From contig NIVC01000754.1 of assembly GCA_002269645.1 (NCBI GenBank), positions 124,001 to 188,000 of the forward strand: a stretch of DNA of 64,000 nt. The letters run 5' to 3'. The position numbers and the translations under genes are program-made. Source of the stretch: Macrostomum lignano (taxonomy: Eukaryota). Positions 12,829-38,500 of this stretch are shown one piece after another. The notes beneath the pieces are model-generated. The model searched no databases. It had not been told where the DNA came from and saw nothing but the letters and a program-made list of their open reading frames with translations. How positions within the stretch are numbered: position 1 is the stretch's first letter; each line of letters opens with the position of its first letter.

Positions 12829-13438
12829 TACTGTCCGTCAAAAGTTCCGGAACCCTTGCTACGATGTCTTCTAGCGGACATAATTTCAGTCCGTTTCAAT
12901 TGTAACTTGATTTAAATGAAAGCTGCGGATCTCAGCTCCATGATGTGGTCAAGAAAAAGTTTATTCGAAGGAGCGCGTGTGAACAGGCCAGTGTTATGTA
13001 CATAAAGGTTAGAGAAAAAAAGTGAGGAAAAGACAAACAAGCAATTGTCTATGGTTGCTGAGTCTATGGAGCAAACACACATGGGAAGGAATCGGTTTGC
13101 GCGCAGTGTTCAGCCTGGCTAACATTAGTCTATGGCCAAAACTTGTGTTGAAATCAACAGGCTCTTATAGATTCTTGTGCAGTCAGCTTTCATGGGAGAG
13201 TAAAAAAGAGTAAAAAACAATTGCTTGTTTGTCTTTTCCTCACTTTTTTTCTCTAACCTTTATGTACATAACACTGGCCTGTTCACACGCGCTCCTTCGA
13301 ATAAACTTTTTCTTGACCACATCATGGAGCTGAGATCCGCAGCTTTCATTTAAATCAAGTTACAATTGAAACGGACTGAAATTATGTCCGCTAGAAGACA
13401 TCGTAGCAAAAGGGTTCCGGAACTTTTGACGGACAGTA
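12829..13438. mobile_element. Foldback Tc1/mariner-type MITE (about 219-bp TIRs, about 170-bp spacer)
   Basis: 12829-13047 and 13218-13438 are near-perfect inverted repeats (a 2-nt indel seen). Ends TACTGTCCGTCAAAAGTT, with TA on both sides. Confidence 0.85.
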
Positions 13439-15337: not shown

Positions 15338-15576
15338 TGTAAGACTTGCACTTTGTCGAGACGTAATTCAAACTCGATTCTGATTTTATATTTCGAGGTG
15401 CCGCGTCACTACTCCCCCTAAGGTACCAACATGGTCTGATGCGAGAGCGCTTTTTAAATTGGGGCGCACTTTCGGAAGTTACAACAAAATACATCATCGA
15501 TAATATACACTAACAATCCTAACCCCCAACTAAACCAAAATGCATCCATTGAAATTCAATGATGAGATTTGCTACA
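15338..15576 (-). repeat. 3' LTR of element A
   Basis: No difference seen by eye from 23326-23564. Confidence 0.95.
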
Positions 15577-16498
15577 TTATCCCCCCCAACGGAAATTGAC
15601 AATGTCCTCATTGGCAAAAAAACTGCATTACACAAGGAGAAAGTTACATGTAGTTTACCTCAATTTTACAGTCACAAAGTGCACGATATATGCATATAAG
15701 TAGTGAGCACATCAGTACTCGGCTTAATGCTACAGATCGGCGAAAGAGGCGAAGCACCGCACTGTGAGCAGCCAAGACGCATCGCAGAAAAAAACGGGCA
15801 ACCAATGCTTCCATAACATTTCGGATGCTTGATTCCCCACAGAAATGCACAATACAGGGTTATAAACACATGAAAACAGCCCAAAGGGGACTTGCGACAT
15901 GCCAACTTGACAGTTGAATACATTGAATTGTTCGATTTCAATGGGACCAGGAACAGCAATCGGCGATTTAAGGGTACAATTGCGATTAAATGAACGAATA
16001 GTTGGATCGATAGGTTATGCCTTAATAAGAAGCAATAAAAGAATTTTTTTTTAAATTATGCGATTATTTTGATATTGAAATATTGAGCGATAAAAGCGAA
16101 AGAAATATTTGCACAGAAGGCATGAAAATAATAAGTAACACTGAAGTATTTCGCGAATGCATTAAAACAGCTGAAATAGAGCAGCACAATTAGATCAATA
16201 ATAAAAACACGACCGTAAATTCCAACAGAATTCTAAAGGGTATGCAGTACAGCGGCACGGCTGCGCCCAACTAGGGCCAAACTGAACAATTACTAATCCC
16301 CACAGTCCACAACCCGCCAAGCATCGACCACCGCCACGCAAAAGAGGACTCAAGACAGATGGGGCAGCCAAAACGCGAACAAAATTGCGATTAAAACTTA
16401 AAACATTGTACATGCTGAACTTCAATTAGAGAAAAATTTTACACTCTGCATTTTTTAAGTCCAAGGAACCTCAGCACAGTCCATATCCTCACACTTTA

Positions 16499-17799
16499 TC
16501 AAATGACGACCCAATCAGCGTCAAGCACTTCACTGCTGTCGTCACTGGCCGCTCCGCTCCGAGGCTGATCCGGGGGCCGTGGCTGATGCGCTCGCTTTAG
16601 TTTGTTGACGTGGACCACCCGGCCAGCATCGCCGTCCTTGTACTCAACGGGGCGGACCAGGTAATTACGATGTACGCCGCAGAACTCGAAACGGTCCGGT
16701 CCACGGTGCCTGATGCTTCGGTGGCAGGCCACTCGTCCGCGACAGGGCCGACGGCGGCACAAAGAGCCACACCAGGTCGCCTGCTCGAAAACGGCGCCGC
16801 GCCACCTTCTGGTCGTAATAGCGCCGCTGCCGTCTTTGTGCCGCTGCTGTCGCCAGCCTCACGGATTCGAAGGCGCTGAGCAGTCGATCTCGGTTGTCCG
16901 CGGCGAATTGTCCTGTAGTTCTCGGTGGCTCCGGCAGTCGGTAGACAATGTCCAGCGGCAAGGTCACCTCTCGGCCCGTCATCAGAAAGTGCGGCGTGAA
17001 ACCGGAGGTTGCGTTGACACTACTGCGGTAAGCAAGGAGACAGTGTGGCAACACCTCCTCCCACTCGTCGAACTGGACGGTCTGAAGGTGGCAGCGGAGC
17101 ATCTGGTGGAGTGTGCGATGGAACCGTTCTACCAGACCGTCACACTGCGGATGGTAACCAGACGTCCGCGTCTTCTGTACGTCGAGCAGTCTGCACAGGC
17201 TCCGGATTATTTTCCCGTCAACGGCCTTGCCACGGTCGGAGTGGAGGATGTGCGGTGCGCCCCACCGTGACACCCAATTGTCAAACAGCGCCCTGGAAAT
17301 TGTTGCTGCTTTCTCATCCGGCATAGGCACCAGCTCCACCCACTTCGTGAAGTAGTCCATGATCGTCAACAGACGATCATTTCCATGCCGAGACACGCCG
17401 ATCTTAACCACATCGATGCCTATGCGCTGCATCGGGAAACTGCTCACTATCGATCGAAGTGGTGCCCGCTGATGGCCGCTGGTTTTGGCGCGCTGGCACA
17501 CCTGGCATGCTCTGACTGCAACTCTGATGCTCTCGGACATTTTCGGCCAGTAACACCTCGACTTGAGACCTGCCAGTGTCTTCGCTTCGCCCAGATGACC
17601 ACCTTCGTGAATCTCATCGATCAGCTGCTGTTGCTGGCAACGCGGGATTACCGGCACGGGCTTCGACTCCACCAGTCTGTGCAGGGCTCCATCAACGAAA
17701 CATAGTTCTTTGATCTTCTGCGCCAGGATCAGGCTCCCTGGTGGTAGTCGGGCTCGTTGCTGGTCGCTGAGTCTTGTCTTGCCTTTGGCGAGAAGACGA
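16499..17799 (-). pseudogene. pol: Integrase part of pol A, with frameshift near 16670
   Basis: HEGGHLG...CQVCQ zinc-binding motif, IGIDV, LHSDRG, GLVERFHRT, GPFRV. The tail RNYLVRP...VVHVNKLK continues in another frame. Confidence 0.9.
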
Positions 17800-19236
17800 T
17801 GTAGAAAAAATACTAAACTACTAGACTACTAGACTAGACTAGACTATACTAGACTAGAGAGTTACTTGGAGTTAAATTGAATCTAAGATAAGCCAGTAAG
17901 TGGGCGCAGGGCCCAAACAAGTATATTTATACCAGACATTAACTTAGGGGGTTTGAATTGCAGATAATAAAGAGAGGGGGTGGAGTGCGCGACTGAGGAA
18001 AGAGGCGAGAACGGAGAGCCAATCAGAACGCAGCAAGGGAGAGAGAGATAAGAATAACAAGATTGAGCTAGACAGAGAGAGAGAAAACGGAGTAAACAGA
18101 GACAATTGAAGGTGAACTAAGAAATGACTAGGAAAGTCGCGACACTCCCCCCAAAAAATGGAACATTTTTTGAATTTTCGAGTACCAATAGAATTATGAA
18201 TTAGAGTTCAAGAAACAACTTTAAAACAAATTTAACAATGGTGTACGAGCTACAAATACGACTAAGAATTTCAATACAAAAACTGTAGAGACTAGAGTGA
18301 ATGCAAAATTGACCAAGAAATTTCACGTGTGCGATTTTAATGAATAAATTGTTACGAGTATAACCAATGAAAAAACTGACTGCATCTACCCTCCCCCCTA
18401 AAAAATTAATTTAATTTTTTACATTGTGAAAGAAAAAATTGAACGACGAATTAACGAGGCGATCCGGCAGGCGATGAGCGAAGAGACGATCCGGCAGGCG
18501 AGCCCTGAGGCGCCCCGGCCGAGAATTTGAACCGAGAGAGACCGAGGACACCGCAGGACGCACCCCCGGCAGACGATGAGTGAAGAGAGTCGAGACGATC
18601 CGGCAGGCGAGCCCAGCGGCGCCCCGGCCGAGAATTTGAAACCGAGAGAGACCGAGGACACCGCAGGACGCACCTCCGGCAGACGATGAGCGAAGAGAGT
18701 CGAGACGATCCGGCAGGTGAGCCCCGCGGCGCCCCGGCCGAGAATTTGAAACCGAGAGAGACCGAGGACACCGCAGGACGCACCCCCGGCAGACGATGAG
18801 CGAAGAGACGATCCGGCAGGCGATGAGCGATGAGATGACTGGTGGAGGGCTGCGACGATGACGATGGCATGGCCTTTGCCAGCCTTACTGAATTGACTTA
18901 ATTATTTTACATTGGGCGCCATGTAGAAAAAATACTAAACTAAAGACTAGAGAGTTACTTGGAGTTAAATTGAATCTAAGATAAGCCAGTAAGTGGGCGC
19001 AGGGCCCAAACAAGTATATTTATACCAGACATTAACTTAGGGGGTTTGAATTGCAGATAATAAAGAGAGGGGTGGAGTGCGCGACTGAGGAAAGAGGCGA
19101 GAACGGAGAGCCAATCAGAACGCAGCAAGGGAGAGAGAGATAAGAATAACAAGATTGAGCTAGACAGAGAGAGAGAAAACGGAGTAAACAGAGACAATTG
19201 AAGGTGAACTAAGAAATGACTAGGAAAGTCGCGACA
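17800..19236 (-). mobile_element. Non-autonomous TRIM-like LTR element B inserted in pol A
   Basis: LTRs 17800-18144 (345 bp) and 18922-19236 (315 bp). 5-bp TSD GACGA. PBS TGGCGCCCAA (tRNA-Lys type). PPT TTTTTTGGGGGGAG. The 777-bp interior is non-coding. Confidence 0.92.
18483..18830. repeat. Three GC-rich tandem units of about 110 bp inside element B
   Basis: GAGACGATCCGGCAGG recurs at 18483, 18592, 18702 and 18805. Confidence 0.9.
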
Positions 19237-21880
19237 GACGAAATACTGGTCCGATGTCAGCGTCTTTGAGCTGCCGCTCACGCAGCGTCAGAGACTCGTT
19301 CGACTGCATTGCTCTCGCCTGGCCGGTCTCATCGTCGCCATCATCATCCTGGTCATCACTATCGCTGAACTCCTCGCTTTCGCTTGGCCTCGGCTGCAGC
19401 TGCTGCTTCCGTCTAGATGGAGCGCGGCCAGCAGTCCTAGGGTCGTTCTGAGGGTCGGCTGCTGAAGGCGCAGGGTCTGTCGTCGCCACGTTGACCAGCG
19501 CGAGTTTAGTACCACCAGCTTCCACTTGACAGGGTGTTGATGCCGTTTGCACTGGTGTTTCAGCGAATTTTTCTGCTTGGTAAGCTACGTTCGCAGCCGG
19601 CCTCACTGTCTCCGCAATTGGCTCCGTTTGACAAGCTACCGTAGCTGACAGCTTCCGTACTTCAGCTGCCGATTCTGGCCGACAAACCCGGCACTGGCTC
19701 GTACATTTCGATGTCCGGCGTGAAAGTGCATCGGCATTCGAGTGCTGACGTCCAGGACGGAACACTATCTCGAAGTCAAACTCGTCGAGGATTTGCAACC
19801 ATCTCGCTAATTGACCCTCCGGTTCCTTGAAGTTCAGCAGGTACGTCAGGGCTTGATGATCGACTCTGATCGTGAATGGCCGTGTCAGCAGATAACTTCG
19901 AAATTTCTTTACAAATTCGACAACTGCCAGTAGCTCGCGCCGTGTCACGCAGTAATTGCGTTCAGCCCGAGACAGCGTGCGACTTGCATACGCCACGACT
20001 CGCTCTTCACCAGCCTGAATTTGCGACAAAACAGCACCAACTGCGCAATCACTGGCGTCGGTGTCCAAGATGTACGCACCGCCAGTGTCGCTGGTGTCCG
20101 GAAAGGCCAGGATCGGCGCGGATGTAAGCACTTGCTTCAACTGGTTGAAGGCCACTTCGGCGGCTGGTGTCCATTCAAAGCCGGTTGTCAGAGTCAGTCG
20201 CCTTAGCGGTTCTGCAATCTTGGCGTAGTCGCGAACAAATCTCCTGTAGTACGATGTCATGCCCAGGAAACTTTTGACGTCCTTTGGCGAGTGCGGTGTT
20301 GGCCAGTCGCGCACTGCTGCTGTCTTCGACTCGTCGACTGCAATGCCAGTCCTGGAGACTCGGTGACCCAGAACGATGATGCTGGAATTGGCGAAACGAC
20401 ATTTGGACGGCTTGAGACGCAAGTTGGCTTCGCGAAGACGCTCTAGCACCGCTCTTAGCCGATTGTTGTGTTCGGCCATCGTCCGGCCCATGACGATAAC
20501 ATCATCTATGAAGACAAGGCACGCTTGCCACGTGAGTCCCCGGAGCACTAATTGCATCAAGCGCTGGAATGTAGCCGGTGCATTGCGGAGGCCGAATGGC
20601 ATAACGTTGAACTCAAAAATGCCTTCGTGGCAGACGAATGCCGTTTTTTCTTTGTCTTTCTCATTCATTTCAACTTGCCAATATCCGCTTTCCAGGTCGA
20701 GTGCGGAGAAAAAACTGTTGCCCTCCAGCGCATCCAGCGTGTCGTCAACGCGAGGCATTGGAAATGCATCGGGCTTGGTTACCGAGTTGAGCTGCCGGTA
20801 GTCGAGACAAAAACGTGCCGACCCGTCTTTTTTTCGAACCAGGACAATCGGCGACGCCCACGGTGAAGATGATGGCTGAATGACACCTCTGCTCAGCATG
20901 TCTTCGACCAGCTCTCTTTGCTGCGCAATTGCCGTAGGAGCTGCACGGCGTAGACCTTGCCGGATCGGTCTCGCATCACCGGTGTCGATGGTATGGCTCA
21001 GCAGACGGGTGCAGCCCTGGTTGCCAGGTGATGCGAACACGTCGTTGAATTCCAAAAGGAGGTCTCTGATCTGCTGCTGTTCACTCGCTGAAATTTCGTC
21101 GGCAATGTGCACTTCTCGAAGCCATGGTGCATTGCCATCTATTGAGGTTGTCGCTGTTGCCATGCTGGTAGACTGGAGCTGCGTCCCGCCTTGACTGCTG
21201 AGTGGCGTGAACCATCCGATGGTGTCGCCTTCTCTGACAGCCACCGGTGCATCGCTAGCGTTGATGATCGCGACGCCCATGCCATTGTTCGATATTTTGG
21301 CTACACAGCGAGCAATCAAGACCTTCGATGACCTGCTACCGTTGACGATGCCGGGTGCCTCCGAACTTGTCCATGCGGTCACGTGTAACGGTCGGACTGG
21401 AACGGTCCAACCTTCACCAGGCTGTAACTGAACTGCTGCTGCCGCCACCAGTTTGCTTGACTGCGCTGCCTGCTTCGACTTCCGCAGCGGCACTGTTGCT
21501 CCAAGGCCATTGAAAACGAGACATCCCGAACCGAGATGAATTGAGCAGTCTTGCTTGTCAAGAAAGTCGCATCCCAGAATTATAGGTACATTTAATTCTG
21601 TCACCACCAGAAAGGTGTGTTGAAACTGGACGGATCCGAGAGAGAAGTACAAATGAATCTCACCCAGCACGCTCGCCGGATTGCCACTCACGCCATAGAT
21701 GGTAGTTTTGCTGGGTTTGAACTGCCGCCTGATTGATCGCGCGATGTTGAGACTGATACAGGAAACTTCGGCACCTGTGTCGATCAAGCAGGGCCGACGA
21801 CGTCTGCAGATGCGCGCGGTGACGAAACGCGCTTGACTGGGCTGGCAGCTGGGGCGTGAGGGCGGGGCCGATTTGCTCAG
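19237..21880 (-). pseudogene. pol: pol A protease-RT-RNase H, interrupted by element B
   Basis: LIDTGA protease, RFCLDYR, MPFGLRNAPATFQR, FIDDVIV, LDTDASD, NADALSR. Confidence 0.95.
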
Positions 21881-23280
21881 TGCCGAGAGGGCCGGTACTG
21901 GCCCTGTGGACCAGCCCCCCTGGCGTTTGGGCAGTTCCTTCGAATGTGACCTGGCAGATTGCAGCTGTAACACACTGGCATTGGTCGTTGCGACGGATGA
22001 TGGCCAGCTTGAGCTTGGGCCTGTTGCTGAAGTGGTCTTGGGGTCGCATGCGGCTGTCGATTCAGTGGCTTCCACGATGTCGTTGGGTCACTCTGGTGCT
22101 CACCCCCAGGTCGTTGCCCATGCATTGGCAGAGCTGCTGATCCCACCACGGGTGCCGACGTCGCCGTGCCGCGTTGATGCTGCTGATTTTTTCCTTGGCC
22201 TTCTAGGAATTGCTGAGTCTCGCGGATCTGCTGAGCCCATCGGAGCGCTTGCTCTGTTGTTGTCACTGGCATTGGCATATTAAGAAGACGCTCTGTCACA
22301 TAGCTGTTGTTTAGGCCCTGGATAAACTGGTCCAAGACAGCTTGTTGAAGGAACTCGTGAGCACCTGCATCAGGAAATGCTTTGACAGCCAGGCGTTGCA
22401 ATGCAGTGAGAAACTGTTCGAAGGTCTCATCTTTTCCTCGGCATCGACTTCGAAGCTCAAGCCGAAGCAAGGCTGTACTCTTTGCTCCTCCGTGGCGCGC
22501 TCGCAGAAACTGTAGCAGTGAGTCATACCGTGCTCCAGGAAGGTGCTCCAGGTTTGAACCAACTGGCAACCCATGCAGGACGCACTGCTGGTCGAACCAA
22601 GCTGCGTACGTGGCAAACGCGGGCCCTAGATAAGCAATTAAAGTTGCAATTTTGCCGTGCTCACTCAATCCTGGGAACCGACTCATGAATGCTGACATGC
22701 GGCTTAGGAAGTCGTCAAAATTCTCTCGGCTATTGAATGGTGCAGGCTTGGGCACTGGTGGTAAGGGAGGCTGACTGAATTGATGCTGCACTGGGGCATG
22801 CACTGCCTCTGCATAGGTTGGTGTCAGTCGAGCCCCTGGTGTTGGTGCTGCCTGTTGTCCATGGTACAGGTGAGGCATACCTGTGCACGGCCTGGTGTTA
22901 TTGCTGTTGGTTGCTCCTCCTTGCATCGGGAATGCTGTCGTAGGTTGAGGTTGCCTCTCTGACTGTAGTGGATCTGGCGAGCTTGCAGCTTCACACTGTT
23001 GTTGCACTTGCACTCGGTGCTCGGCATAATCAGCAGAAGCTAAATAATCATGGCACCTGTGTCTGTGTCTCCTTACTGGGCATGTCTCAGCACTGTTGAT
23101 CGCATCGTCGAGCGTTTCAATTGTGTCAGATTCATGGAGATCGTGGTAACTCTGTTTTCCTCGGTCCTGCTCTGGATGACTGGCTGCTGCAGCTGCCGCT
23201 GCGGCACCGTGTATGGCTGTAGTAGGTATAGGCCTTAGTACATCTCGGCCACGAAGTTGCAGAAAGTCTTGCCTCTACAT
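21877..23280 (-). pseudogene. gag: gag A (CCHC knuckle), nonsense codon at position 2
   Basis: The frame of ORF 21877-23013 stays open to ATG-TAG at 23280-23275 (M*RQDFLQLRGRDV). CYSCNLPGHIRRNC near the C-terminus. Confidence 0.85.
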
Positions 23281-23325
23281 GCTCAATCTCGCTCCAAGGA
23301 CTTCGGTCCTGGCGTGGTCGCCAAA

Positions 23326-23564
23326 TGTAAGACTTGCACTTTGTCGAGACGTAATTCAAACTCGATTCTGATTTTATATTTCGAGGTGCCGCGTCACTAC
23401 TCCCCCTAAGGTACCAACATGGTCTGATGCGAGAGCGCTTTTTAAATTGGGGCGCACTTTCGGAAGTTACAACAAAATACATCATCGATAATATACACTA
23501 ACAATCCTAACCCCCAACTAAACCAAAATGCATCCATTGAAATTCAATGATGAGATTTGCTACA
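23326..23564 (-). repeat. 5' LTR of element A
   Basis: Matches 15338-15576. PBS adjacent. Confidence 0.95.
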
Positions 23565-25626
23565 ACTTGACAGTATCGGTCACACTAAACGGCAATGGGC
23601 AATGAGTAGGAGTTCAAGGTTCGAGCGAGCGAGCTAGTTAGTATAGTTAGTAAGTAAGTACCTAGTAAATGAGAAAATGATGTCTTCAAAAAATTCCTAA
23701 AAATGTCGCTTTTAGCCAAAGACACTATTATTTTAGACATTGATCATGTCAATTCTCCGATAAACCTACTAGATATGCCTTAGGGGATGCATGCAGGCAA
23801 ATTCAGCAACAAACAAGAAACAACTTCGGCGACAGCAATTAAATGAACAAATTCGGCGATCTTTTACTTTCGCATTCGCACGTTATTATTATTTTATTTG
23901 AAAATTTTAGATTCTGTTCAGTTTAACAATGAATATCATAACGAATTCAAATTAGGCCTATTCAATGGAAATTGGAAAGACTGATCAGTTTCAAGTTTCA
24001 ACAGCAACATATAGATTATTAGGCGCCTAACTGCTAACTTGTGAAACTGGTGAATCACTGAATGTGAATGGGTAGTCCTAAAAAGCAACCTAAAAAAGAA
24101 ACAATGGGTGATTCTCATCGAGAGGTTTCGGAGGTTTTGAGGTTTTTCAGAGGTTTCATTTTGAACAAATATTTTTGCACAAAATTTTTAATACTGTACA
24201 AAAATTAAAATCTTATTAAAATTTACTAATGAATACAAATTTTCCTTAGAAAATAGCTCGGAGGTTTTGGATTCTTTTTAATTTTGCTTCTGATAGGCAC
24301 GCGCGGAAATTATTTAACTTAGGCAACTATTTTTATGCTTAAGAAAGTGGTTTTTAAAAACACTACACGCAACACAACACACTGGTAATGTCATCGTTGC
24401 CATTGGCATTTACATTTAAGGTGGAAAAAAATATTCGACTTGAAGGCGCTGCTTGAAATATACTGAAAACATATAGACAGCTGTTTCATCCGTTTCCTGT
24501 TTTTACTTGAGTGCTGCATACCATTTTGCATTCGAATTATGTAATGACATTGACGACCTGCATGCATACTGCCTCAGTGAAGTAAATAGAAGAATTATTC
24601 TTGTCTCAATGTTTTTTTAAAAAAAATATCTGAGGGCCTAGAATTACAAGTATGCATTTTAATTTATATTACTTACAGCTGTACTAGTGCTATGCCTTTA
24701 TCATAGTATACTCGAATGTTCTTTCAATGTAATAACTGTATATTCGAATCTTTCTTAGAAACTGAATCTACGCGAACGCCAAATAATAGTTTGTTTTAAT
24801 GCGCGAAATAAATTGGAGAATTATTTTTTTGTTTTAATCGTATGTGGGGAAAATCACTATATATAGGAGCGGTTTCGCGACAAATATACTCTAACTGTCT
24901 TTTACTCGTGAGCAAATAATTGCGAACAGAATAAGCAGTTCAATCTAAACCATTTCAAAGTCTTTGAGCTAAATAGCGACTTATTTATTTGCAAAACCTG
25001 TGAAACGATTCTAAGAAATTTGCTAAGAGAAGGGAATTGGGACTAATTCTTGGAGATATACCAAGAGAGGCGCCGTGACCCTCTAGTCTCGGTGAACGCC
25101 CGATTAGGACTATACACTAATACATATACCAGTACTAGACCGCTCAGGCCATAAGCTACTATAACGCTACCAGAAAGCAAGCCATAAGCTACCAGAAACG
25201 CTACTAAGAACGCTACCCAGAAATATTTAAATGAAATTCTAAGAAATAGTTAGGGAGTAAAAGCAAGTATAATCAGGATAACTGTAGTTGGCAAATCGGT
25301 GGGATTAAAATTGATAAAGTAAGAGGTGAAAGGCCTGTAACAACTTTGGTGGCAGCTCGTAGGATATTTAATAAACACTAATAGTTAGAAGTTTAGAAAG
25401 ACAGAGCCAAAAGGCCTGTCACAGCTGGTGGCAGCGGTGGGATTATTTCAGTGAGAGCGCCCACCCCTACGACAACTTGGTGGCAATAGTGGGATATTAT
25501 TAAGAAGGAAGTAAGCACTGTCACAGCTGGTGGCAGCGATAAGGATTAGAGAAACGGCGCGAACTCTCAAAACTAGATTCAGAAGAATTCCGAAGAATAA
25601 TTTGAAAAGTTTTTCGTAGAGAGAAG

Positions 25627-26634
25627 ATGAATCAGAATCAGGCTAATGACGCCATCGCCATGCTGGCAGAAGAATTGCGAAACCGACTAGAGATACGGCC
25701 GATGAGACACGTTAAGATTCAGAAATTCACACCTACGCAAGACATTCGGATTTGGCTAACAGCTTTCGATCAGCGCTGTGAAGTAGAAGGGATAGATGAG
25801 GAACATAGGAAGCAGGAATTGCTAGCTAATCTGGACCTGTCCACTGCATTCGCAGCGGTACAGCGCCTAAATCTGCCCGAGGATCTCGAATACGAAGAGT
25901 TCAAAGAGCGACTGATTGAGCGATTCGGAAGAATCGGTAGTTCCGCAGAATTCAGAGAGGAGTTTCGTGGAAGAATGCAAGGCAGAAATGAGCCTGTAGA
26001 GACTTTCGCAGACTGTTTGATCGAGCTGGCATCGCGTGCATTTCCGAATATGACGGTTGAGCAAAGGGAAGAAGAAATTGTTGAGCAATTCATCAAGGGA
26101 ATCAGAATTCCGTCAGAGACCCGTGAGAAGCTAATCTTTGCGCAGCCAGGCAATTTACAAGAGGCTAGAAGAATGCTAAGAAGGATGGAGGCTGCGTGGA
26201 ACATGTCTCACAAGAATGTCAACATGAGAATGGCCAAAGGCGAAGGCGAGAGTGAGCAGAAGGCAGATCAGGAGAAGCTTGAGGACATCATCAAGAAGCA
26301 GAGAGCAGAGTTAGAGCAACAGAAGAAGGCGATTGAGGAGCTGATGGAAGAGAAGAGAGCTAGCCGTCAGCAGTATCATCCGCAGAATCAATATCAAACG
26401 TACGCTCAGGTCGCTGGACCGCCGCAGCAGCCGAGATATCGGCCGCAGCAGCAGCAGCAGCAGCAGCAGCCAGTATGGCGCGGTCAGCCTCAGTTCAACA
26501 GGCAGCCACAGCAACAGCAGCAGCCTCGAGCCTGCTACAATTGCGGGAAGCTTGGCCACATGGCGAGGAATTGCCAGAGCGCTAGGCCAAACGGTCAGCG
26601 AGTGATGGACTACCAGAAGCAGCAGGGAAACTGA
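25627..26634 (+). CDS. gag: gag C (335 aa, CCHC knuckle)
   Basis: Intact ORF with QGRNEPVETFADCL and CYNCGKLGHMARNC. Confidence 0.92.
   Translation: MNQNQANDAIAMLAEELRNRLEIRPMRHVKIQKFTPTQDIRIWLTAFDQRCEVEGIDEEHRKQELLANLDLSTAFAAVQRLNLPEDLEYEEFKERLIERFGRIGSSAEFREEFRGRMQGRNEPVETFADCLIELASRAFPNMTVEQREEEIVEQFIKGIRIPSETREKLIFAQPGNLQEARRMLRRMEAAWNMSHKNVNMRMAKGEGESEQKADQEKLEDIIKKQRAELEQQKKAIEELMEEKRASRQQYHPQNQYQTYAQVAGPPQQPRYRPQQQQQQQQPVWRGQPQFNRQPQQQQQPRACYNCGKLGHMARNCQSARPNGQRVMDYQKQQGN
26625..26631 (+). promoter_or_regulatory. -1 ribosomal frameshift slippery site G GGA AAC
   Basis: Canonical X XXY YYZ at the gag stop. The -1 frame is open into the protease ORF (in frame with 26817). Confidence 0.75.
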
Positions 26635-29600
26635 GTAGCGAGGGCCGCTTTGCGAGGCCACGTCCCTCTAGCAACAATTATCGCGAATTTCAGGCCTCTG
26701 AATTTGTAAATAATGCGTATCGAAGTAATGCCAGACAGTATAGTAACAGCAGAACGCATGCCGAATTCAATAAATTTCACAGAAAACCAAATAAAAATTT
26801 TGCACCTCGTGTACATATGCCGCTTGCACCTAGTCATGCGTCTGCTAGCCACAGTAGGCCGAATAATAAAGTACAAAGTACAGTAATTCCGAATGAGCAT
26901 TCGAAGAGAGAATTCGAAGAAGATACGGAGAGAAAAGGACGAGAAGCAGTCGTCAATGGAATGCTAAGAAACCGAAAGGTCTACTTCTTGCTAGACACAG
27001 GAGCTGGACATAATTTCCTAAGCAAGAGTACTTGGAAAAAGATGTTCAGAAGTGATGAAATTGAGTTGACTACTCGAAGAGTGACTACGTTTGACGGATC
27101 AAGTGTGCGAATTGAAGGAGAAGTCAGAACGAAAATACGATTCGGAGAGATAGAGATTGAGACAGAGTTCCTGCTGTGCAATCACGAGTGTGACGACATA
27201 CTCGGGATGGAGTTCTTCATGAACTTCTGCGACAGCATCAGCCTTTCCAGAGGAATGCTTGTATTAAAAGAAGGAACCTGCATCCCAATTCAGTTTACAA
27301 AATTACCCGTACGGGTTTGCCGAATCTACAGCCATAACAGCGTGACTATACCAGCGAATAGCGCTCTTCGAATTCCAATTAGAATGACTAAAGGATCAGA
27401 AGCTAACTATGGAACGCCAATGGTCATTGACACCATTGGAGGCCAAGTGACTACGAAGAAAATTCCTTAGAGATGATTCCTACTCTAGTGACCATGAACG
27501 ATGGAACAGGAGTAGTGGAAATAATCAATCGACAGAATGACGATATCAGACTGACAAGATCTACGCTGATTGGAGTGGCCAAACCCTTGAAGCCAGGAGG
27601 CCTGGCCTACTCTATTAACAGCAAAGGTCAAGCCAGTTCAGATGATGCAATTAGGACAGTGAAGAGTGAAGAGAGTGAGTACAGCTGGATAAACGAGATC
27701 GATTTAGGAGAAGAGCTAACATCAGAACAGAAAGGACTAGTGATCGATTTGCTAAAGAAGAACAAGGAAGCATTTTCGCAGACCAACCAAGACATGGGTC
27801 TCACCCATCTTGTGACTCATGAAATATCTCTAAAAGATACCACACCGGTCAGGATTCCAACACGCAGAATTCCACCACATCTGCAAAAGCAAGTAGATGA
27901 GCAACTTGACGACATGCTTGCTAAGAACCTGATCCGACCGTGCTATAGTACTTATTCGACGCCGCTAGTGATAGTTCCTAAGAAGGATGGATCCATAAGA
28001 ATCGTCAGTGACTTCAGGGTCCTGAATTCGAGAGTGAACTATTACCCATATCCATTACCGAACATACAAGAGACTTTCGCTCAGTTATCTGGAAGCAAGT
28101 ACTTCAGTAGTCTAGATTTAAACTCTGGATACTGGCAGGTACCTATCAAAGAGGAGCACAAATTTATGACAGCCTTTTCCACCCTTACCAGAGGCCAGTT
28201 CGAATATCAGGTCATGGCACAGGGCTTGTCTAACGCTCCTGGTACATTCCAGAGACTCATGAATTTGGTGCTGATGGGAATACAGCACAAATTCGCAATG
28301 TCGTACATAGATGATATTGTGACATACTCAGAGAAATTCGAAGATCATCTCGGTCATCTGCAAGAAGTATTTCAAAGACTAATCTCAGCAGGACTAAAAT
28401 TAAGACCAAAAAAGTGCAACTTGTTTCAGAAAGAGCTAAAGTACTTAGGGCATATCGTAGGAAGAGAAGGGATTAGAACAGACCCAGCTAAGATCGAAGC
28501 GATACAGTCATGGCCTACGCCGAAAGAGGTCAAAGAACTGCGAAGCTTCTTGGGGTTGTGTAACTACTACTGCAGATTTGTAAAGAATTACGCAGAGGCA
28601 GCGCATCCGCTATTTCAATTAACTAAGAAAGGTATTCAAAACTTTAGGGAAAAGTGGACCAAGAAACATGACGAGGCTTTCCAGCAGTTGAAGCAGAGAA
28701 TGACATCGACCGAAGTACTCGCGTACCCAGAATTCTCAGAGAACGAGAATGTTCGAATGGTATTAGACACCGACGCAAGCGAAGACCGAATTGGTGCTTG
28801 CCTGGGTCAAATACAATCGGACGGGGTTGAAAGACCCATTGCTTACTTCAGCAGAGCAATGAAAGAGTCTGAGAAAAGATATCCGATTACCAGAAAAGAG
28901 CTATTAGCGCTAGTAGATGGCATGAAACACTTCCGATTTTACCTAATTGGCAAAAGGTTTCTGGCCCGCACAGACCACAAGGCAATTCTATGGTTACTGC
29001 GCCAGACCGAAGCCCAAGGAATTCTCGGAAGATGGATTGAAAGACTGAGTGAGTTTCAATACGATATTGAGCACCGCAGTGGAGCCAAACATTCCAACGC
29101 AGATGGATTGTCACGGCGACCCTCGGAACCACCAGTTGAACAGAAAGATGCTAAGATCAAAGAGAATGAGGCCGAAATTCCTAAGATGACAATAGAAACC
29201 AGCGCTGTGAAACAAGTCGTGACTAACAGCGTGAAAGATCAGAGTTGCCAGACCGACTTCACAGAAGAGTATGAATCAGATTCCGAAGACGAATTCGCAG
29301 ATGATGAATACGAAGATGCCAGTGATCAGTTCGAAGATAATGATGACATCTATGAAGATGCAAGAGACTATTTCGAAGAGGAAGAGACAGTGTGCAGAAA
29401 GCTTCTGACAGATTACCTCTCGGTTCCATTGAAGAAAGAGCAGCTGACTTCAGCGCAGCATGCTGATCCTTCTATAAGAACCTTGATGGACTGGAAGCAG
29501 AAGAAAGTGCGTGAGCCGAAGTTGCCAGAAAATGCATCCGGAGAGTTGAAGAAGATGGTTAAGTTCTACGAGCAGATGAAAATCGAAGATGAAATGCTGA

Positions 29601-31134
29601 CAGTCAGTGAAGACGGTAAACGGAAAGTAGTATTGCCAGAAAGGATTGAGAAAGATGTATTCAAAGAGCTGCATGACAGTCCGCTAGCAGGCCACCTAGG
29701 TCGGGACAAGACGCTACAGCGAGTCCGAGACCGATTCTGGAGGCCGGGGTTAGTGACTGCAGTTGAAAAGTACATCGCAGAATGCATCCCGTGTCTGGAA
29801 AGTAAAAGCGGAAATAAAGTACGAGCACCGGTGCAGACCTTTCCGATATGCGAGCCATTTCATCGGCTGCACATAGATTTGATCGGTCCAATATCAAAGG
29901 AAAGCAGAAGAGGACACCGATATGTACTTACTGTCGTAGATAGTACAACAAAGTTCCCATTCGCTTTTCCGGTTCGGAATCAGAAATCCGCGACTGTTAT
30001 CAAAACGATACAAGAGAGAATTTTCAGCGAGTATGGCCAGTGTCAATGGATACACACTGATAATGGCAAGACTTTTGTAAGTCACCAATTTCAGGCATTC
30101 TGTACCCTATACGGCATTAAGCATACTTGCACTACGCCTTACCATGCTCAGAGTAACGGGCTTGTCGAAAGATTTAACAAGCAAATTAAATCGATTGTAA
30201 CCTGTTTGATTGAAAAGGATCATTCAGATTGGGATCTGCTCATACCCGCCGCTTTGGTAGCTGTGCGAACCAGTGTTAATCAAACTACTGGGTTCACACC
30301 ACACTACTTACTATTCGGGAGAGAAGCAGATTTGCCAATAGATAGCATTGTGAAAAGGCCAAGACTATACCGAGACTATCCTAGCTATGTGCTGGATCAT
30401 GCGAAGAGAATCGAGGAGACAAAAGCAATTGTGCGAAGACAACTCGAAAAGGTGCGAGAGAAAAGGCAAGAGGACGAAGTTGAGAATCGTCAGCCTAAAA
30501 ATGTGCCAGTTGGCTGTCTCGCTCTCATCAACAATCCTCAACTTCACCAAGAGGAGAGCCACAAATTTCATCGAAAGAAAAGAGCAGCCTATCGAGTTCT
30601 TGCGAAGATATCTGATACAGTTTTCCGTGTGCAAAGAGAAATCAATGGCGAAAGGAGCGGAGAAAAACTATTAGTACATAGAAATAATCTGACTCCAGTG
30701 CCGAAATCCGAAATTGATTTACCAGAGGAAATTAATAATAATTTAAAACCAGCACCAGTGCCAACTAAGAAGAAAGAACAGCCGAAGCCGAAGAAAAGAA
30801 TTTGCCATAGACAAAAAGAAGTTAGAATTCCAGAAGTTCAAATTTTAGAGGAGGAAAGCTCAGACGAAGAAAACAGAATTCAATGGAGAGTATTCGCAGA
30901 TCCGAATTCGCAGAGTGAAAACAAGGAAATGAAGAATTGAACAGTGAAAATACAGAGAGAGCGACTGACTCAGATGAGCCATCAGAAGAAGAAGAAGGAG
31001 CATTAGAGTTAGAGGAGGAACGAGTTCAGCCAGAGAATAGGTATAACTTTAGGATGACTCAGCGAAGGAGAGAAAGAGAAGGCGCGACAGGATTTGTGCC
31101 CCGAAGGCGCTACGCGAAATATTTAGCACCTTAA
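26632..31134 (+). pseudogene. pol: pol C (PR-RT-RH-IN) with apparent frameshifts at about 27468 and about 30935
   Basis: LLDTGA, SDFRVLN, YIDDIV, LDTDASED, HLGRDKT...CIPC, HTDNG, GLVERFN. KKIP*/MIPT is most simply a 1-nt deletion. The acidic RYNFR tail is in a shifted frame. Either lesion may be an assembly error. Confidence 0.9.
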
Positions 31135-31450: not shown

Positions 31451-31531
31451 CGAGCACCCTGCAGGCCCCACAGATCCCATAGCTCACTGCTAGCTTCCTT
31501 TCTATTCTAAGAGTCATTCGAAGAGAACCAT

Positions 31532-32405
31532 ATGGATAACTCAGTCGACATTCTGCAAGAGTTGATCGGTGACCTGTCAGACGATATGGAGCCTCAGCCA
31601 GCGCCCAACACCGACGAAAATGAGGCACCGCTTCGATGTGCAACACGTCCAAAGGCGCCTGGTGTATCCAGCAAACGGCCAAGAACATCATCGCCAGCTT
31701 CATCGCCTTGCCGCCAAATGAGGGTCGAAGGCCCCGAACAGAAGCGCGCCGCCCTGGTGGCAGCACAGGCAGCTGCGCCTGTGCGCTCCTATGTTGTCAA
31801 GGCCACGCCAGGATCGTCGACATCAAGCCGAACACAGCAGTTGGTGTCACCGCCAGCTGCCCCACCATCGAGGAAGACCCCGGCACCACGGCAGAAGAAA
31901 TCGACAGCTGCGACACCGCCAGCTCAGCAGCCAGCGCCGCAGCCGAGCCTGCAATCAGCGCAGCAGTCAGCGCTGCAGCCGAGCCTGCAATCAGCGCAGC
32001 AGTCTAGCCAGCCATCAGCACTACAGCCGAGCCAGCAGCAATCGAATTCGCAGAGATTTTCATCGCATCGTCCGAGAACTTGTGGAGACTCTCGGAGCAG
32101 AGGTGGAAAAGCTACGCTTCCACATTGAGCAATACGCACTGAAAGTAGCGTACCACCGATCCGACAGCCGACAGCGCTACCCCCAATGCTCGCAAATTTG
32201 GACACACCTGAAGTTTCTGAGGGATCAATTCAGTTACCAGGAAGCTGTCGCTGTTCTCCAGGACGTCGCCTATCGCCTCCAGCGAGCTATAAGAGCCAAC
32301 CCGCCGCCAGCGCTGACGGTCCTCGACGAAGAGTACCGATGGTTTTTCGCTCAAGTCGGCTGGCCCTACTATCGCGACCTCCCGGAGCCCTGCATGTTTA
32401 TCTGA
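31532..32405 (+). CDS. Element C ORF3, unknown non-env protein (about 290 aa if one frameshift near 32030 is bridged)
   Basis: The acidic, P/S/Q-rich N-half (frame of 31532-32128) overlaps a helical-looking C-half RIRRDFHRIVREL...WPYYRDLPEPCMFI (frame of 31791-32405). No signal peptide or TM segment. Confidence 0.6.
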
Positions 32406-34599
32406 ACTATTGAGGTGAACTAACTTTTGCGTTGCCTTTAATAACAATTTTGCCTTTTATAATACTTTTATAATAGTTCGTTTTGCTTCCATAATAGTTC
32501 TCGCTTTAATGGTTTACCTACATAATAGTTCTATCACAACCATTTTATGCACCAATTGTTTTAGCACTGAATTGTGTTTTCTGCACCTTGCTTTGCACCT
32601 TTTCACCTGCATTTTCCTACGATATCAATTTTTCACTGTATACATATAATATAGTATTTCGTTCAAAATTTGATATATAGAGGAGGAAAGTTGTACTAGT
32701 GCTATGCCTTTATCATAGTATACTCGAATGTTCTTTCAATGTAATAACTGTATATTCGAATCTTTCTTAGAAACTGAATCTACGCGAACGCCAAATAATA
32801 GTTTGTTTTAATGCGCGAAATAAATTGGAGAATTATTTTTTTGTTTTAATCGTATGTGGGGAAAATCACTATATATAGGAGCGGTTTCGCGACAAATATA
32901 CTCTAACTGTCTTTTACTCGTGAGCAAATAATTGCGAACAGAATAAGCAGTTCAATCTAAACCATTTCAAAGTCTTTGAGCTAAATAGCGACTTATTTAT
33001 TTGCAAAACCTGTGAAACGATTCTAAGAAATTTGCTAAGAGAAGGGAATTGGGACTAATTCTTGGAGATATACCAAGAGAGGCGCCGTGACCCTCTAGTC
33101 TCGGTGAACGCCCGATTAGGACTATACACTAATACATATACCAGTACTAGACCGCTCAGGCCATAAGCTACTATAACGCTACCAGAAAGCAAGCCATAAG
33201 CTACCAGAAACGCTACTAAGAACGCTACCAGAAATATTTAAATGAAATTCTAAGAAATAGTTAGGGAGTAAAAGCAAGTATAATCAGGATAACTGTAGTT
33301 GGCAAATCGGTGGGATTAAAATTGATAAAGTAAGAGGTGAAAGGCCTGTAACAACTTTGGTGGCAGCTCGTAGGATATTTAATAAACACTAATAGTTAGA
33401 AGTTTAGAAAGACAGAGCCAAAAGGCCTGTCACACAGCAGAGCATTTTACTTTTAATCATAAAAATTATTTTTAACTACTAAAAGCTATTAGCTTTTCTC
33501 TCATAAATAACACTAGTTGCACAACTGTTACTGCTGACAAAAGCTCTAACACCTTAGATTTAGTTCTTATACAAACAAAATGCTTGCAGTATGACTTTGT
33601 ACACATTTTGACATTGTTTTTTAAAAATATTATAATTTCTTCAATATAAATGTATTATTGGAATCTTTAAAGATTGCAAGAACAAATGTATAGGAAAATC
33701 ATTGTTTATTGACTTTTGAAATTGATTGTTTATGAAAAGTTATAGATGAAAGTAACCATAATCAATACCTTTTATTTCAACATACTTTGTTTCAGCTGCC
33801 AATACCATGCCTGAACTACCGCTTGCCTGGTCTCCTGCCTGCATTCTGAGCCTGTACAGGCCAACAATGCTTCATGTTTGTCTAATCTAATAACTGTCAT
33901 TATGGCATTCCATGTCCTATACCCACTTATGTTGCGACTCAGTGCAACCTAGCTCACCATCGCCACCCTTAGAGCTTTGGCAGGCTGGTTGCTTTGGTGG
34001 TGGCAATTGGTTTGGTTGTCAGCATACAGAAGATGGCTGTGCTCTAGCTACTAACCAGATGACATCAACCGACAGCCTAGGGGCTAATCTACTGCGCACT
34101 GCCTTCGAGATGAATGACTGAAGTTCTTCAACTGCTTGCTGGCTGACGCGCTACAGCCTTCATTTTTGCAGGCATCGTCTTTCATATGCGCATTAAATTT
34201 AGTTAAGAAAAGTTAAGAACTTCACTTTCATCTGAGTAAATAACAAGAAAAGACTTATATTCTCTCATGTAAAGATCTGAAATGGGAACTTTTAAACTGT
34301 TTTGATTTGACTCTCAAAGAATATTTATAATATAGTGTATTTAGGCAATGTACAGCAATGTATGGATAAATATACATACTGATAAAGAAAATACAAAACG
34401 TTCCTTCTTTGATTGTGAAATGCATTCTTGCAATGTTCGATGTTTTAAAAATGTAAGGCCTAAAAAAAAGGCAAGACCAATTGGCAACTACCGTGAAGCT
34501 AATTTGCTTGTATCAAGTTGGCGTACGCTGGCTGACATTGGATTATCTATGAGACTTGGAGTCTCGCTGCACTAAACCCTTGAAAAAACGTTAGCCAGC

Positions 34600-35594: not shown

Positions 35595-38500
35595 GATAAC
35601 TACTGTGGATGATAAGAGAGTATATTGGTTTAATATTAAAACAAATCACTTATAAAGTAAATTAAAAACTGAATAAAAATGTGATAACTAGGCATACATA
35701 AGTACAAGCTACTATTTACTTTGAATATTTGCATAAAAAGACAAAAACTAAAGCAAGTTACTAATGTATAAGAGTAATAGAAATTGTACTCACCTATATA
35801 AACTTAAATTATAACTGAATATAAATAGCTATTAATAAATTATATTTAAATTTAATAAGTAAAAATTTGAGTTCATTAGAGCTTTCAAATTTATACGCAG
35901 AGGTAGAGCAATCAAAAAAAAATTGTCATTTTTAAAGCCGGGTGAAGAGAATTATTCACTAGGATTAGAGACTTAGTCTTAGGTAATAAATATTTTTATC
36001 CTATGTGCATAGTGTGTTAGGATTTAGGATGATGATGTAAAAATAGTAAAATAATATAAAATAAAAATATTTTTTAGTATATTGGATGTAAAATAAAAAA
36101 GAATATCAAATAAGTGAAATAAAAAATAATATATTTTACATTAAATATGCCTAGTAAAATACTGAGGGCCTTTAGTTAGTTAGACTAACAATCTATATTA
36201 AATAGCAACTGATACTGACTTGATGAAAAAATACTGAATTGGTCTTGTTAGTGTTAGTCATAATTTAAGTCTGGCTTAAAAATTGATAGCTTTCTTAAGA
36301 CAAGTAAAAAACAATATGAAATTCGCATTGGTAAATAGTGTCTGTATTTAATTACATGGACAGGTCTAGTAGAAATTAGGATAGTTACGAATATGCATTG
36401 AAAGGGACAACACACACTTGTGACGGTTCGCAACTTTGCGCTTATGAAATGAAATGTGTCAGCCTACCACTTCGCACAAAAACAGTTAAATAATTTTCGC
36501 GCGTGCCTATCAGAAGCAAAATTAAAAAGAATCCGAAACCTCCGAGCTATTTTCTAAACAAAATTTGTATTCATTAGTAAATTTCAGTAAGATTTCAATT
36601 TTTGTACAGTATTAAAAATTTTGTGCATAAATATTTGTTCGAAATGAAACCTCTGAAAAACCTCAAAACCTCCGAAACCTCTCGATGAGAATCACCCAGA
36701 AACAATAAGCAATGGCTAGTAGGTGTAGGTGGGCAGCCAGCCATAGTTTTTGGTGGTACATTAAGATATTTGAGTCACATGACTGCTTGAGCTATAAGTC
36801 TATTGCATTTGCCCCACATTGACTTGACCATTGACTGGCTAAGTTTATGGTTGACAGTAATTTCATCTGCTGCTAATTCGTTTGCATTCTTTCATCTGCA
36901 AAAATTTGATGCAGTCATTTTGTCTCCCACAAAATATTAAGCCTAAGTACGATGCTGCTACATATTATAATGAAAATAAATATCTATATATCTTAAAAAG
37001 TATGTTATGTTAGAACTAGAAGCACAAAAATACAATCTAAAAATAATTTTCCGAAGGGACCCATAGTATACATAAATAGGCCTATGTACATTTATTTTTT
37101 ATATGAATTTTGTAGGCTGAATAATTGTTCATAATAAAAATGCATTATCATCATTGGATGGGGTCATAATAATGCTCACAACAGGTAACAGCCAGCTAAT
37201 CATATTCAACAGTGAACTCTGTCTCTGCCTTCAATATTTCTAACTGCAGGATCCCTTCCAATCAATATTAGGCCTAAGTTCTTTTCTATCAATGTATAAA
37301 ATTTATATCATATTTCTTTGATATATTGCTAAAAACAAAATTTTTAGCTTGTAAAAACGAAACAAAATATCCCCAACTGATAATGATAGTGATATACTTT
37401 GTGCTAGAGAAATCTCTCATGCTGTAGGCCCTATCATTCTATACCTATTTGAATTAGAAATTTCTAAGAAAAAAATTTAAATATTGGAAAGTAGGCCTAC
37501 TAGAAGATTCTCTAATTAGGCCTAAGTAATTAGGCAAAAGCAAATGTAGCAATAGAAATAGACTAGGCAAATTTGGTGACAAGTCTTAGAGAAGAGAAAG
37601 AGGCAAAGCAATTAAGCCGATTGTGTTAAGATTCAAGAAAGCTTTAGAATGAAAAAAAAGAAGTTTGAGTTTGAAGAGTTAAAGGTAGGCCTATTGGCTT
37701 AGGTTGTAGGCTTGTAGGCTTGTAGTTTATAAATAAAAGGATAAATTGCAAGCATATTATACTCAAATTTATGGCTTTAGTAGAAATGGAACATTAAGAA
37801 TTGTGTTTATGGAACATGGATTCTAGGGTACTGATTTTTATAAGCTCAGAGAGGTAGGGTTGGCATTTGGTCTGGGCACATTTCATTGAAAAGAAGTAAA
37901 CTAGTAGGCCTATTAGTCAAAGACTACTAAAGGAAATGGGACTTGATATTAAATACCATGTGTTTCTAGCAATGAACAGTGAGTAATAGCATTTTATCTA
38001 AAATAAATTCATTTAGCCATTAATTAGCTCTACTGGTAAGTGGCTAATGAGTAGTAAGGTAGATATATTATTAACTGAAACATTTCAAGTATTTGTCATT
38101 AGGGCCTATTCAATATTTAAATATTTGATTTGATTCAAATTTAATCTAATTGGCTAAAAATTGTTTTATCTTATCTTTAGACAAGAATATAGCATAGAAA
38201 CCATAAAATATTTTTGGTAGACAAGCTATATGACATCTTTATATTATTTCTATGCATTGTTTCTATGTCCTAACCTATGATTTTAAGACCTATAAAACAT
38301 AGAAAATAAACATTAGAAAATGCAAGTTAGGTTAATGAATAATTTGATTTTTATAACAAATTTGCAATAAATTTTGCACATTAAGTGCATCAAAGATTAT
38401 TTGTACATGCCAAAATTTTCATGGCAAATGCTGTATTCTTGAATATAGACTTACAAGTATGGCCATACAAAAATGCTGTAAGTATAGTATTGCATACTCT

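What the first reader, a model, noticed from the sequence alone, without database searches (positions are those of the whole stretch)
25288..25548. Array of five LTR-end/tRNA-Leu PBS-like cassettes straddling the 5' LTR boundary of element C
Seen: PBS-like motifs at about 25288 (TTGGCAAATCGGTGGGATT, degenerate), 25347 (TGGTGGCAGCTCGTAGGAT), 25426 (perfect TGGTGGCAGCGGTGGGATT), 25478 (TGGTGGCAATAGTGGGAT) and 25528 (TGGTGGCAGCGATAAGGAT), separated by unrelated spacers. The last four each follow an LTR-end mimic (TGTAACA, TGTCACA, TACGACA, TGTCACA). Two lie inside the LTR and recur in the 3' LTR. Established: LTR elements normally have one PBS, and 3' tRNA fragments can silence elements through it. 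Inference: alternative priming sites, decoys for tRNA fragments, or a record of stepwise U5 extension by PBS shifting.
Basis: partly seen in the sequence, partly recalled or inferred. Interest (0 to 1): 0.7.

Follow-up and report, generated by a model that had tools for sequence, protein, structure and literature searches.

The report
Shuffling primer-site array in retrotransposon LTRs
A family of flatworm jumping genes carries a string of "end plus start-site" modules at the edge of its terminal repeat, and sister copies end at different modules and hold them in different orders, which likely records copying that starts at alternative sites and swaps modules between elements.

Summary
The five motifs are real and at the stated places. 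They belong to a young Ty3/gypsy element whose RT is identical to a protein named Macrostomum lignano. Each module is an LTR end, a linker, a tRNA-Leu PBS and a spacer. A sister insertion has the same five modules, but its LTRs end at module 5 instead of module 3 (102 bp longer); both copies have 4-bp target duplications. So two primer sites were likely used. The extra spacers come from other LTR subfamilies, and the site just after the shortened LTR is the exact tRNA complement. The same three stages recur in another subfamily and in a sister family. Arrays are lineage-wide: 55 of 70 sampled LTR-motif loci, about 30 spacer types in variable order, and four related families. Inner sites look silenced: mostly 3-5 edits here, often masked by predicted hairpins in sister families. 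Module 2 was never seen used (0 of 69). Best reading: modules are captured at plus-strand transfer, fixed by distal priming, then silenced. A tRF-decoy role is weakly supported. Ten literature searches found no description; function is untested.

The parts
24676..24679 (+). 4-bp target-site duplication CAGC (repeated at 33435-33438)
24680..25423 (+). 5' LTR, TG...CA, 744 bp, 99.7% identical to the 3' LTR; TATA-like box at 24858
25288..25306 (+). Unit 1: likely a half PBS (3' half intact) fused to upstream LTR sequence at a GCAAA microhomology; no LTR end before it; inside both LTRs
25307..25346 (+). Spacer 1, LTR-end mimic CCTGTAACA (25334-25342) and linker ACTT
25347..25365 (+). Unit 2 PBS: 10-nt match to the tRNA 3' end, 4 edits; inside both LTRs; never seen used
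25366..25423 (+). Spacer 2 with AATAAA at 25370 (possible poly(A) signal, inferred) and the real LTR end CCTGTCACA of this copy
25426..25444 (+). Unit 3 PBS: exact complement of the 3' end of tRNA-Leu(AAG/TAG); likely the primer site that set this copy's LTR end
25424..25525 (+). 102 bp that lie outside the LTR here, inside both LTRs in the C269 copy, and are absent as a block from most copies
25445..25477 (+). Spacer 3 (type shared with other LTR subfamilies), LTR-end mimic CCCTACGACA and linker ACT
25478..25496 (+). Unit 4 PBS: degenerate, 8-nt match at the priming end
25497..25527 (+). Spacer 4, LTR end CACTGTCACA (the real LTR end of the C269 copy) and linker GC
25528..25547 (+). Unit 5 PBS: the family's commonest leader-proximal allele; 11-nt match, mismatched middle, GGATT kept
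25627..26634 (+). gag with one CCHC zinc knuckle
26586..30940 (+). pol: protease (26586-27470) and RT-RNase H-integrase (27431-30940), in two frames in this copy
31511..32405 (+). Two overlapping frames with no Pfam match; related to a third ORF of about 300 codons in other copies
32679..32690 (+). Polypurine tract
32692..33434 (+). 3' LTR, with copies of unit 1 (33299) and unit 2 (33358); ends at the unit-3 end

Best explanation
The five motifs are modules (LTR end + linker + tRNA-Leu primer site + spacer) of a variable array at the LTR edge of a Ty3/gypsy lineage; sister copies end their LTRs at different modules, and the array likely grows by capture from sibling elements during reverse transcription. 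Steps. (1) Shown: the LTR ends at unit 3 here and at unit 5 in a sister insertion; by the standard model the site that primed sets the end (inferred). (2) Inferred: plus-strand strong-stop DNA carries an 18-nt copy of the tRNA end and sometimes lands on an inner PBS-like site of a co-packaged sibling RNA. The product has the donor's LTR, a reset perfect PBS, and the sibling's distal modules in the leader, as in this window. (3) Inferred: priming at the distal site in a later round moves those modules into both LTRs; landing on the distal site deletes them. (4) Inferred: inner sites are then switched off, by 3-5 changes in this family or by an anti-PBS hairpin in sister families. The array would be a self-renewing by-product kept in check by selection against active inner sites. 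Steps 1-3 have about 0.85-0.9 support and are shared with rivals 1 and 2; the 'no positive role' part is the uncertain one.
For: Same five units, two LTR ends, each copy with its own 4-bp TSD and 99.7%/100% LTR identity. The LTR ends upstream of the last PBS in 4 of 50 elements examined; in 3 of the 4 the next PBS is perfect while the distal one is mismatched. A second series has all three stages: L147 no extra unit, L145 unit in the leader, L141/L150 unit in both LTRs. A sister family shows two stages, L297 against L294. The captured spacers exist in other subfamilies behind degenerate PBS alleles; one spacer start is preceded by 5 alleles, another by 6, each set including the perfect one. 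140 distinct spacers in about 30 types give 65 array strings in 154 LTR regions, with 7 type pairs in both orders. The perfect leader-proximal allele (13 of 45, plus 2 near-perfect) is unclustered on two trees, and 4 of 8 shared leader haplotypes carry both alleles. The perfect match stops at 18 nt, with position 19 variable, as expected for copying up to m1A58 (own knowledge). 89 of 104 distinct inner sites are 3-5 edits from the primer tRNA; their priming end pairs at a median -13 kcal/mol against -21 to -23 for distal sites. Predicted masking of perfect inner sites, z -2.3 to -3.0 in 5 of 30 contexts folded, while 7 leader-proximal perfect sites score z +0.7 to +2.0.
Against: No reverse-transcription intermediate or RNA end was observed; all steps are read from integrated copies. 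The window-like state can arise by capture or by re-priming at an inner site, and the data do not give the direction for each copy. Many inner perfect sites show no masking (for example L255, L256, L257, L273, L298), and window unit 3 is not significant (z -0.9 and -1.2). Degenerate units as a class do not fold unusually (median z 0.07; whole leader z -1.28). Arrays persist across four families at 57-61% RT identity, and sister families often keep the inner site perfect, which a pure by-product explains poorly. The perfect allele is unclustered but not over-dispersed (P = 0.29), so selection against it is not shown; recombination also blurs those trees. Distinct units are related by descent, so the edit-distance and position counts are not independent. 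Absence of LTRs ending at unit 2 could instead reflect loss of the AATAAA in spacer 2.
Confidence: 0.62

Rival explanations
1. Same turnover mechanism, but inner sites are kept because they help initiation: they would load extra tRNA-Leu, pair with the T-arm part that the mismatched distal site cannot pair with (a split or activator-type site), or serve as back-up primers.
For: Arrays are near-universal in the lineage (55 of 70 census loci by a strict parser) and shared by four families. Sister families keep an exact 18-nt inner site with a dedicated complementary stretch. Unit 1 keeps exactly the half that unit 5 lacks. Ty1 and Ty3 use bipartite sites (PMC5371799, passages).
Against: Unit 2 is unused in 69 of 69 junctions. 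Several arrays with a mismatched distal site lack an intact 3' half upstream (L134, L137, L146). Copies with no second site detected within 130 nt sit inside three sister families (L302, L309, L310).
Confidence: 0.22
2. Inner sites are decoys that would titrate 3' tRNA-Leu fragments away from the working PBS, whose mismatched allele also escapes them.
For: Inner sites often keep the 3' half and carry insertions before positions 8-9, a target-mimic-like layout. The distal allele is mismatched at positions 12-15 in 30 of 45 junctions, like the mismatched common alleles of mouse ERVs (PMC7472051 section 4.3).
Against: Only 36 of 104 inner sites keep an exact 2-7 seed. Extra sites on the same RNA should add silencing targets (inference). 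Perfect inner sites are often predicted to be masked. No small-RNA data could be examined.
Confidence: 0.1
3. Neutral tandem duplication of the LTR end at DNA level, or an assembly artefact.
For: Some arrays elsewhere hold exact tandem copies of one unit (L159, L298, L299). Two window spacer pairs align weakly (p = 0.02 and 0.05 uncorrected).
Against: No tandem repeat is found over the window's units. The extra spacers come from other subfamilies. The same junction lies at two insertion sites with different TSDs. The site after the shortened LTR is reset to the tRNA sequence.
Confidence: 0.04

Closest known systems
Standard LTR-end/PBS junction and tRNA-templated PBS inheritance of retroviruses and mouse ERVs (ETn, MusD, IAP; PMC7472051, section 4.3 read)
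   Same: LTR ends in CA, 2-4 nt linker, 18-nt PBS. The commonest allele is mismatched, and perfect alleles are scattered across the tree as if reset by copying the tRNA.
   Different: One PBS there. Here several complete end+PBS modules lie in series, inside both LTRs, and are exchanged between subfamilies.
Yeast Ty1 and Ty3 bipartite PBS (PMC5371799, passages)
   Same: Ty3/gypsy-type element with more than one stretch complementary to the primer tRNA.
   Different: There the parts pair with different arms of one tRNA, and the tRNA sequence is reported not to be inherited. Here each module repeats the same 3'-end complement with its own LTR end, and the allele pattern suggests the tRNA sequence is inherited.
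Engineered HIV vectors with two primer-binding sites (Voronin and Pathak 2004; only the reference line seen; paper not held)
   Same: Its title reports frequent initiation at both sites of a two-PBS genome.
   Different: A laboratory construct; here a natural, lineage-wide and variable array.
Ty3/Mdg4 families of Macrostomum lignano (PMC12801592; parts 1-2 of 6 read, whole text and 5 supplements searched)
   Same: Same host by the source's name for an identical RT; same superfamily.
   Different: The paper has no occurrence of PBS, primer binding, tRNA or tandem in its main text, and this LTR's motifs were not found in its supplements. The clade of this family was not determined.

Membership tests
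Ty3/gypsy LTR retrotransposon | Paired LTRs TG...CA with a short TSD | tested here: met
   (4-bp TSD; 36 of 45 copies scored)
Ty3/gypsy LTR retrotransposon | gag, then PR-RT-RNase H-integrase order | tested here: met
Ty3/gypsy LTR retrotransposon | PBS complementary to a host tRNA next to the 5' LTR, PPT next to the 3' LTR | tested here: met
   (12 tRNA-Leu AAG/TAG genes in 13 loci)
Named gypsy clade (Gmr1/Osvaldo, Mdg3/micropia, Mag, CsRN1) | RT groups with reference members | not tested
   No reference RTs were on hand; the tree holds only host copies and unnamed relatives
Retrovirus-type PBS inheritance | PBS reset to the 18-nt tRNA complement in part of the progeny | tested here: met
   Indirect: 13 of 45 perfect, unclustered, both alleles on identical leaders; match stops at 18 nt
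Ty1/Ty3 bipartite PBS | Separate segments pairing with different arms of one tRNA | tested here: inconclusive
   Unit 1 keeps the half that unit 5 lacks, but other arrays do not
Small-RNA target mimic (tRF decoy) | Seed kept, central mismatch | tested here: inconclusive
   Exact 2-7 seed in 36 of 104; central insertions common
Small-RNA target mimic (tRF decoy) | Bound by tRF-loaded Argonaute or PIWI | not testable with these tools
   No small-RNA reads available
Simple tandem repeat | Head-to-tail homologous units | tested here: not met

The most novel reading that the evidence does not exclude
The lineage has evolved a recombining primer-site cassette system: PBS repeats act as built-in crossover points that shuffle LTR ends between autonomous and non-autonomous partners, while attenuated or hairpin-gated inner sites are kept by selection to capture tRNA-Leu (or its fragments) and to switch priming between sites, so that LTR length is chosen at each copying round.
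Probability: 0.3. Interest if true: 0.85.

Novelty: new variant of a known kind. Interest (0 to 1): 0.68.

Why it matters
It catches LTR boundaries moving: the short, captured and fixed states coexist as young insertions, so how LTR ends evolve and how a primer site is chosen become directly testable in a tractable host. It also suggests that an animal Ty3/gypsy lineage inherits its PBS from the tRNA like a retrovirus, unlike what is reported for yeast Ty1 and Ty3. It gives a natural test of the trade-off between priming and tRNA-fragment silencing outside mammals. Practically, PBS-based annotation would misplace LTR ends in this lineage.

Tried and rejected
Literature: ten full-text searches found no description of such arrays. 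The library lacks most subscription papers; the earlier classification of this host's LTR elements (reference 16 of PMC12801592) was not seen, and supplements of preprints are closed. PMC2790888 (one passage) was irrelevant.

Relatives outside the host: one exact 25-nt pattern gave 0 hits in metagenome contigs; the pol protein gave none in phage records.

RNA: no RNA holder listed. Contigs of 4 runs guessed to be RNA hold the region, the 102-nt-shorter form and other module orders, but show no ends. No poly(A)-tailed retrocopy behind the spacer-2 AATAAA, and AATAAA lies in only 45 of 111 array regions, so the R/U5 border is unknown.

Structure: no unusual folding of the leader; no partner-specific pairing of LTR end and PBS (13 of 200 swaps as low).

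Other tRNAs: no host tRNA gene for the unit-5 allele by pattern. 16 of 104 inner sites are closest to a second tRNA-like end, but ARAGORN did not confirm that locus as tRNA-Leu, so a multi-isoacceptor reading is left open. No three-unit heat-shock element in this LTR.

Counts: the de-duplication was wrong (it dropped two tandem units and kept one duplicate) and was redone; 5 of 50 junctions were dropped as duplicates by flank. The comparison of PBS and spacer divergence is biased by conditioning on spacer identity and is not used as evidence.

Full report
OBSERVATION. The motifs are at 25288, 25347, 25426, 25478 and 25528. They sit at the 3' edge of the 5' LTR (24680-25423) of an 8.75-kb element whose 3' LTR (32692-33434) is 99.7% identical. 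The element has a 4-bp TSD, gag with a CCHC knuckle, and PR-RT-RNase H-integrase in gypsy order. Its RT region is 100% identical to a protein that the source names Macrostomum lignano; the two other hits named for that species are 58-63% identical, and the rest of the 120 listed are 51% or less. Twelve host tRNA-Leu genes (7 AAG, 5 TAG, in 13 loci) end in the exact complement of unit 3. Chance is excluded: 0.007 comparable hits per 871 shuffled bases. Unit 1 is likely a half unit made by a switch at GCAAA.

TWO ENDS FROM ONE ARRAY. Of 30 loci from the first genome search, 27 have only motifs 1-3 followed by the leader. One other insertion (C269) has the same five motifs, but both its LTRs run 102 bp further and end at unit 5. 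It is a separate insertion: TSD TGCA against CAGC, LTRs 100% identical, internal region 96-98% identical with a deletion of about 1 kb. By the standard model the LTR end is set where the primer binds, so unit 3 likely primed here and unit 5 there. Among 50 elements examined, 4 have the LTR end upstream of the last PBS (window, L144, L145, L146); 4 others had no 3' LTR in the fetched stretch and several ends were cut or tandem. In 3 of the 4 the PBS right after the LTR is perfect while the distal one is mismatched. L147, L145 and L141/L150 repeat the series: no extra unit, unit in the leader, unit inside both LTRs. L297 and L294 show two of the stages in a sister family. Eleven different 10-letter ends are followed by a matching TSD in 36 of 45 copies scored, duplicates included, so ends of the 'mimic' type are real integration ends elsewhere.

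WHERE MODULES COME FROM. The window's extra spacers occur in other LTR subfamilies, behind degenerate PBS alleles. In 175 de-duplicated LTR regions, a parser anchored only on end and linker gave a bimodal score and 257 inner units with 104 distinct PBS sequences. These have 140 distinct spacers (median 31 nt) in about 30 types and 65 array strings in 154 regions; 7 type pairs occur in both orders (single-linkage types are rough). In a census of the first-listed 70 of 532 hits of an LTR motif (13 control hits), 55 had at least one inner or adjacent unit by a strict parser. Three further families, 57-61% identical in RT, carry arrays too, and all four form one branch (SH-aLRT 91, 19 rows, quick tree), with three copies showing a single detected site nested inside. 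One tRNA-Leu-primed element with a 714-bp LTR (L323) and the window's other gypsy element show a single PBS.

RESETTING OF THE PBS. After dropping 5 duplicates from 50 junctions, the leader-proximal site is perfect in 13, near-perfect in 2 and mismatched in 30 of 45; 25 share the unit-5 allele. No tRNA gene for that allele was found. The tRNA-like label is unclustered on a leader+gag tree (14 changes, shuffled median 13) and on an LTR tree (12, median 12), and 4 of 8 shared leader haplotypes hold both alleles. The perfect match stops after 18 nt. This fits copying of the tRNA into plus-strand DNA, as proposed for mouse ERVs; the same review and a Ty3 review say yeast Ty1 and Ty3 do not inherit the tRNA sequence (PMC7472051 section 4.3; PMC5371799 passages). 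Selection against the perfect allele is plausible but not shown (P = 0.29 for over-dispersion).

INNER SITES LOOK SWITCHED OFF. 89 of 104 distinct inner sites are 3-5 edits from the primer tRNA and 5 are within 2; the score threshold limits the upper end. Positions 5-6 and 9-11 are least kept and insertions fall before positions 8-9; G-to-A bias, CpG decay and shared descent may contribute. The 11-nt priming end pairs at a median -13 kcal/mol against -21 to -23 for distal sites. Unit 2 was never found as an LTR end with a non-A flank, and 69 of 69 junctions keep it degenerate. In sister families the inner site is often perfect and followed by a complementary stretch. Of 30 distinct perfect-site contexts folded, 5 scored z -2.3 to -3.0 (all inner or captured), 3 more inner ones -1.6 to -1.8, and the other inner ones near or above zero; 7 leader-proximal sites scored +0.7 to +2.0. 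Window unit 3 is predicted paired on both halves but not beyond chance.

MECHANISM. Best reading: capture, fixation, silencing. Plus-strand strong-stop DNA with its tRNA-copied end lands on an inner site of a sibling RNA (inferred; 20 of 45 copies are short RT-less partners that must borrow enzymes). Distal priming then moves the captured modules into both LTRs (inferred from C269 and L141/L150). Inner sites decay or are masked (pattern shown, cause inferred). Whether the array also does something useful is open. Its persistence across four families argues for a role in initiation (0.22). A decoy role fits the bulged sites but not the low seed retention, 36 of 104 (0.10). Neutral duplication or artefact is largely excluded (0.04).

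KNOWN AND NEW. The element is an ordinary Ty3/gypsy member; its clade was not determined. It works like a retroviral PBS junction repeated in series. Ten searches found no account of natural, shuffling end+PBS arrays, and the host's recent LTR survey does not mention PBS (PMC12801592); coverage of the library is incomplete. Earlier unchecked notes of this scan describe repeated PBS modules in other genomes; they are leads, not support, and suggest the layout may have arisen more than once. What this locus adds is the set of intermediates.

VERDICT. Observation confirmed; interpretation partly supported; new variant of a known kind; interest 0.68.

Noticed in passing
L136-L181: 20 of 45 family copies are short (3.4-4.1 kb internal) with no RT match but a divergent gag-like start and the third ORF; they share LTRs and leader with the full-length copies, so they look like non-autonomous partners.
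   Followed up: partly
L139/L140, L166/L167, L179: Tandem elements that share one LTR (LTR-internal-LTR-internal-LTR).
   Followed up: no
window 31511-32405 and family copies: A third ORF of about 300 codons without Pfam match is kept in both long and short copies and diverges between subfamilies; here it lies in two frames.
   Followed up: partly
L285-L297, L312-L321: Three sister tRNA-Leu families often carry a perfect inner PBS followed by a complementary stretch inside both LTRs; 666 exact PBS matches genome-wide, many inside LTRs.
   Followed up: partly
window 25155-25222: A 12-bp repeat of variable copy number in the LTR upstream of the array; present in related forms in most subfamilies.
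   Followed up: no
window 15338-23564, minus strand: A second gypsy element with 239-bp LTRs and a single, different PBS; no array.
   Followed up: partly
L236, L239, L248, L250, L251: tRNA-Leu-like 3' ends that ARAGORN does not call cleanly; possibly intron-bearing tRNA genes.
   Followed up: partly
L141, L147, L150, L275, L290: Leaders with short tandem repeats directly after the distal PBS.
   Followed up: no
window 12856-13409; 24105-24319 with 36484-36698: A 193-nt perfect inverted repeat with a 168-nt gap, and a 215-nt inverted pair flanking the element region; possibly small DNA transposons.
   Followed up: no
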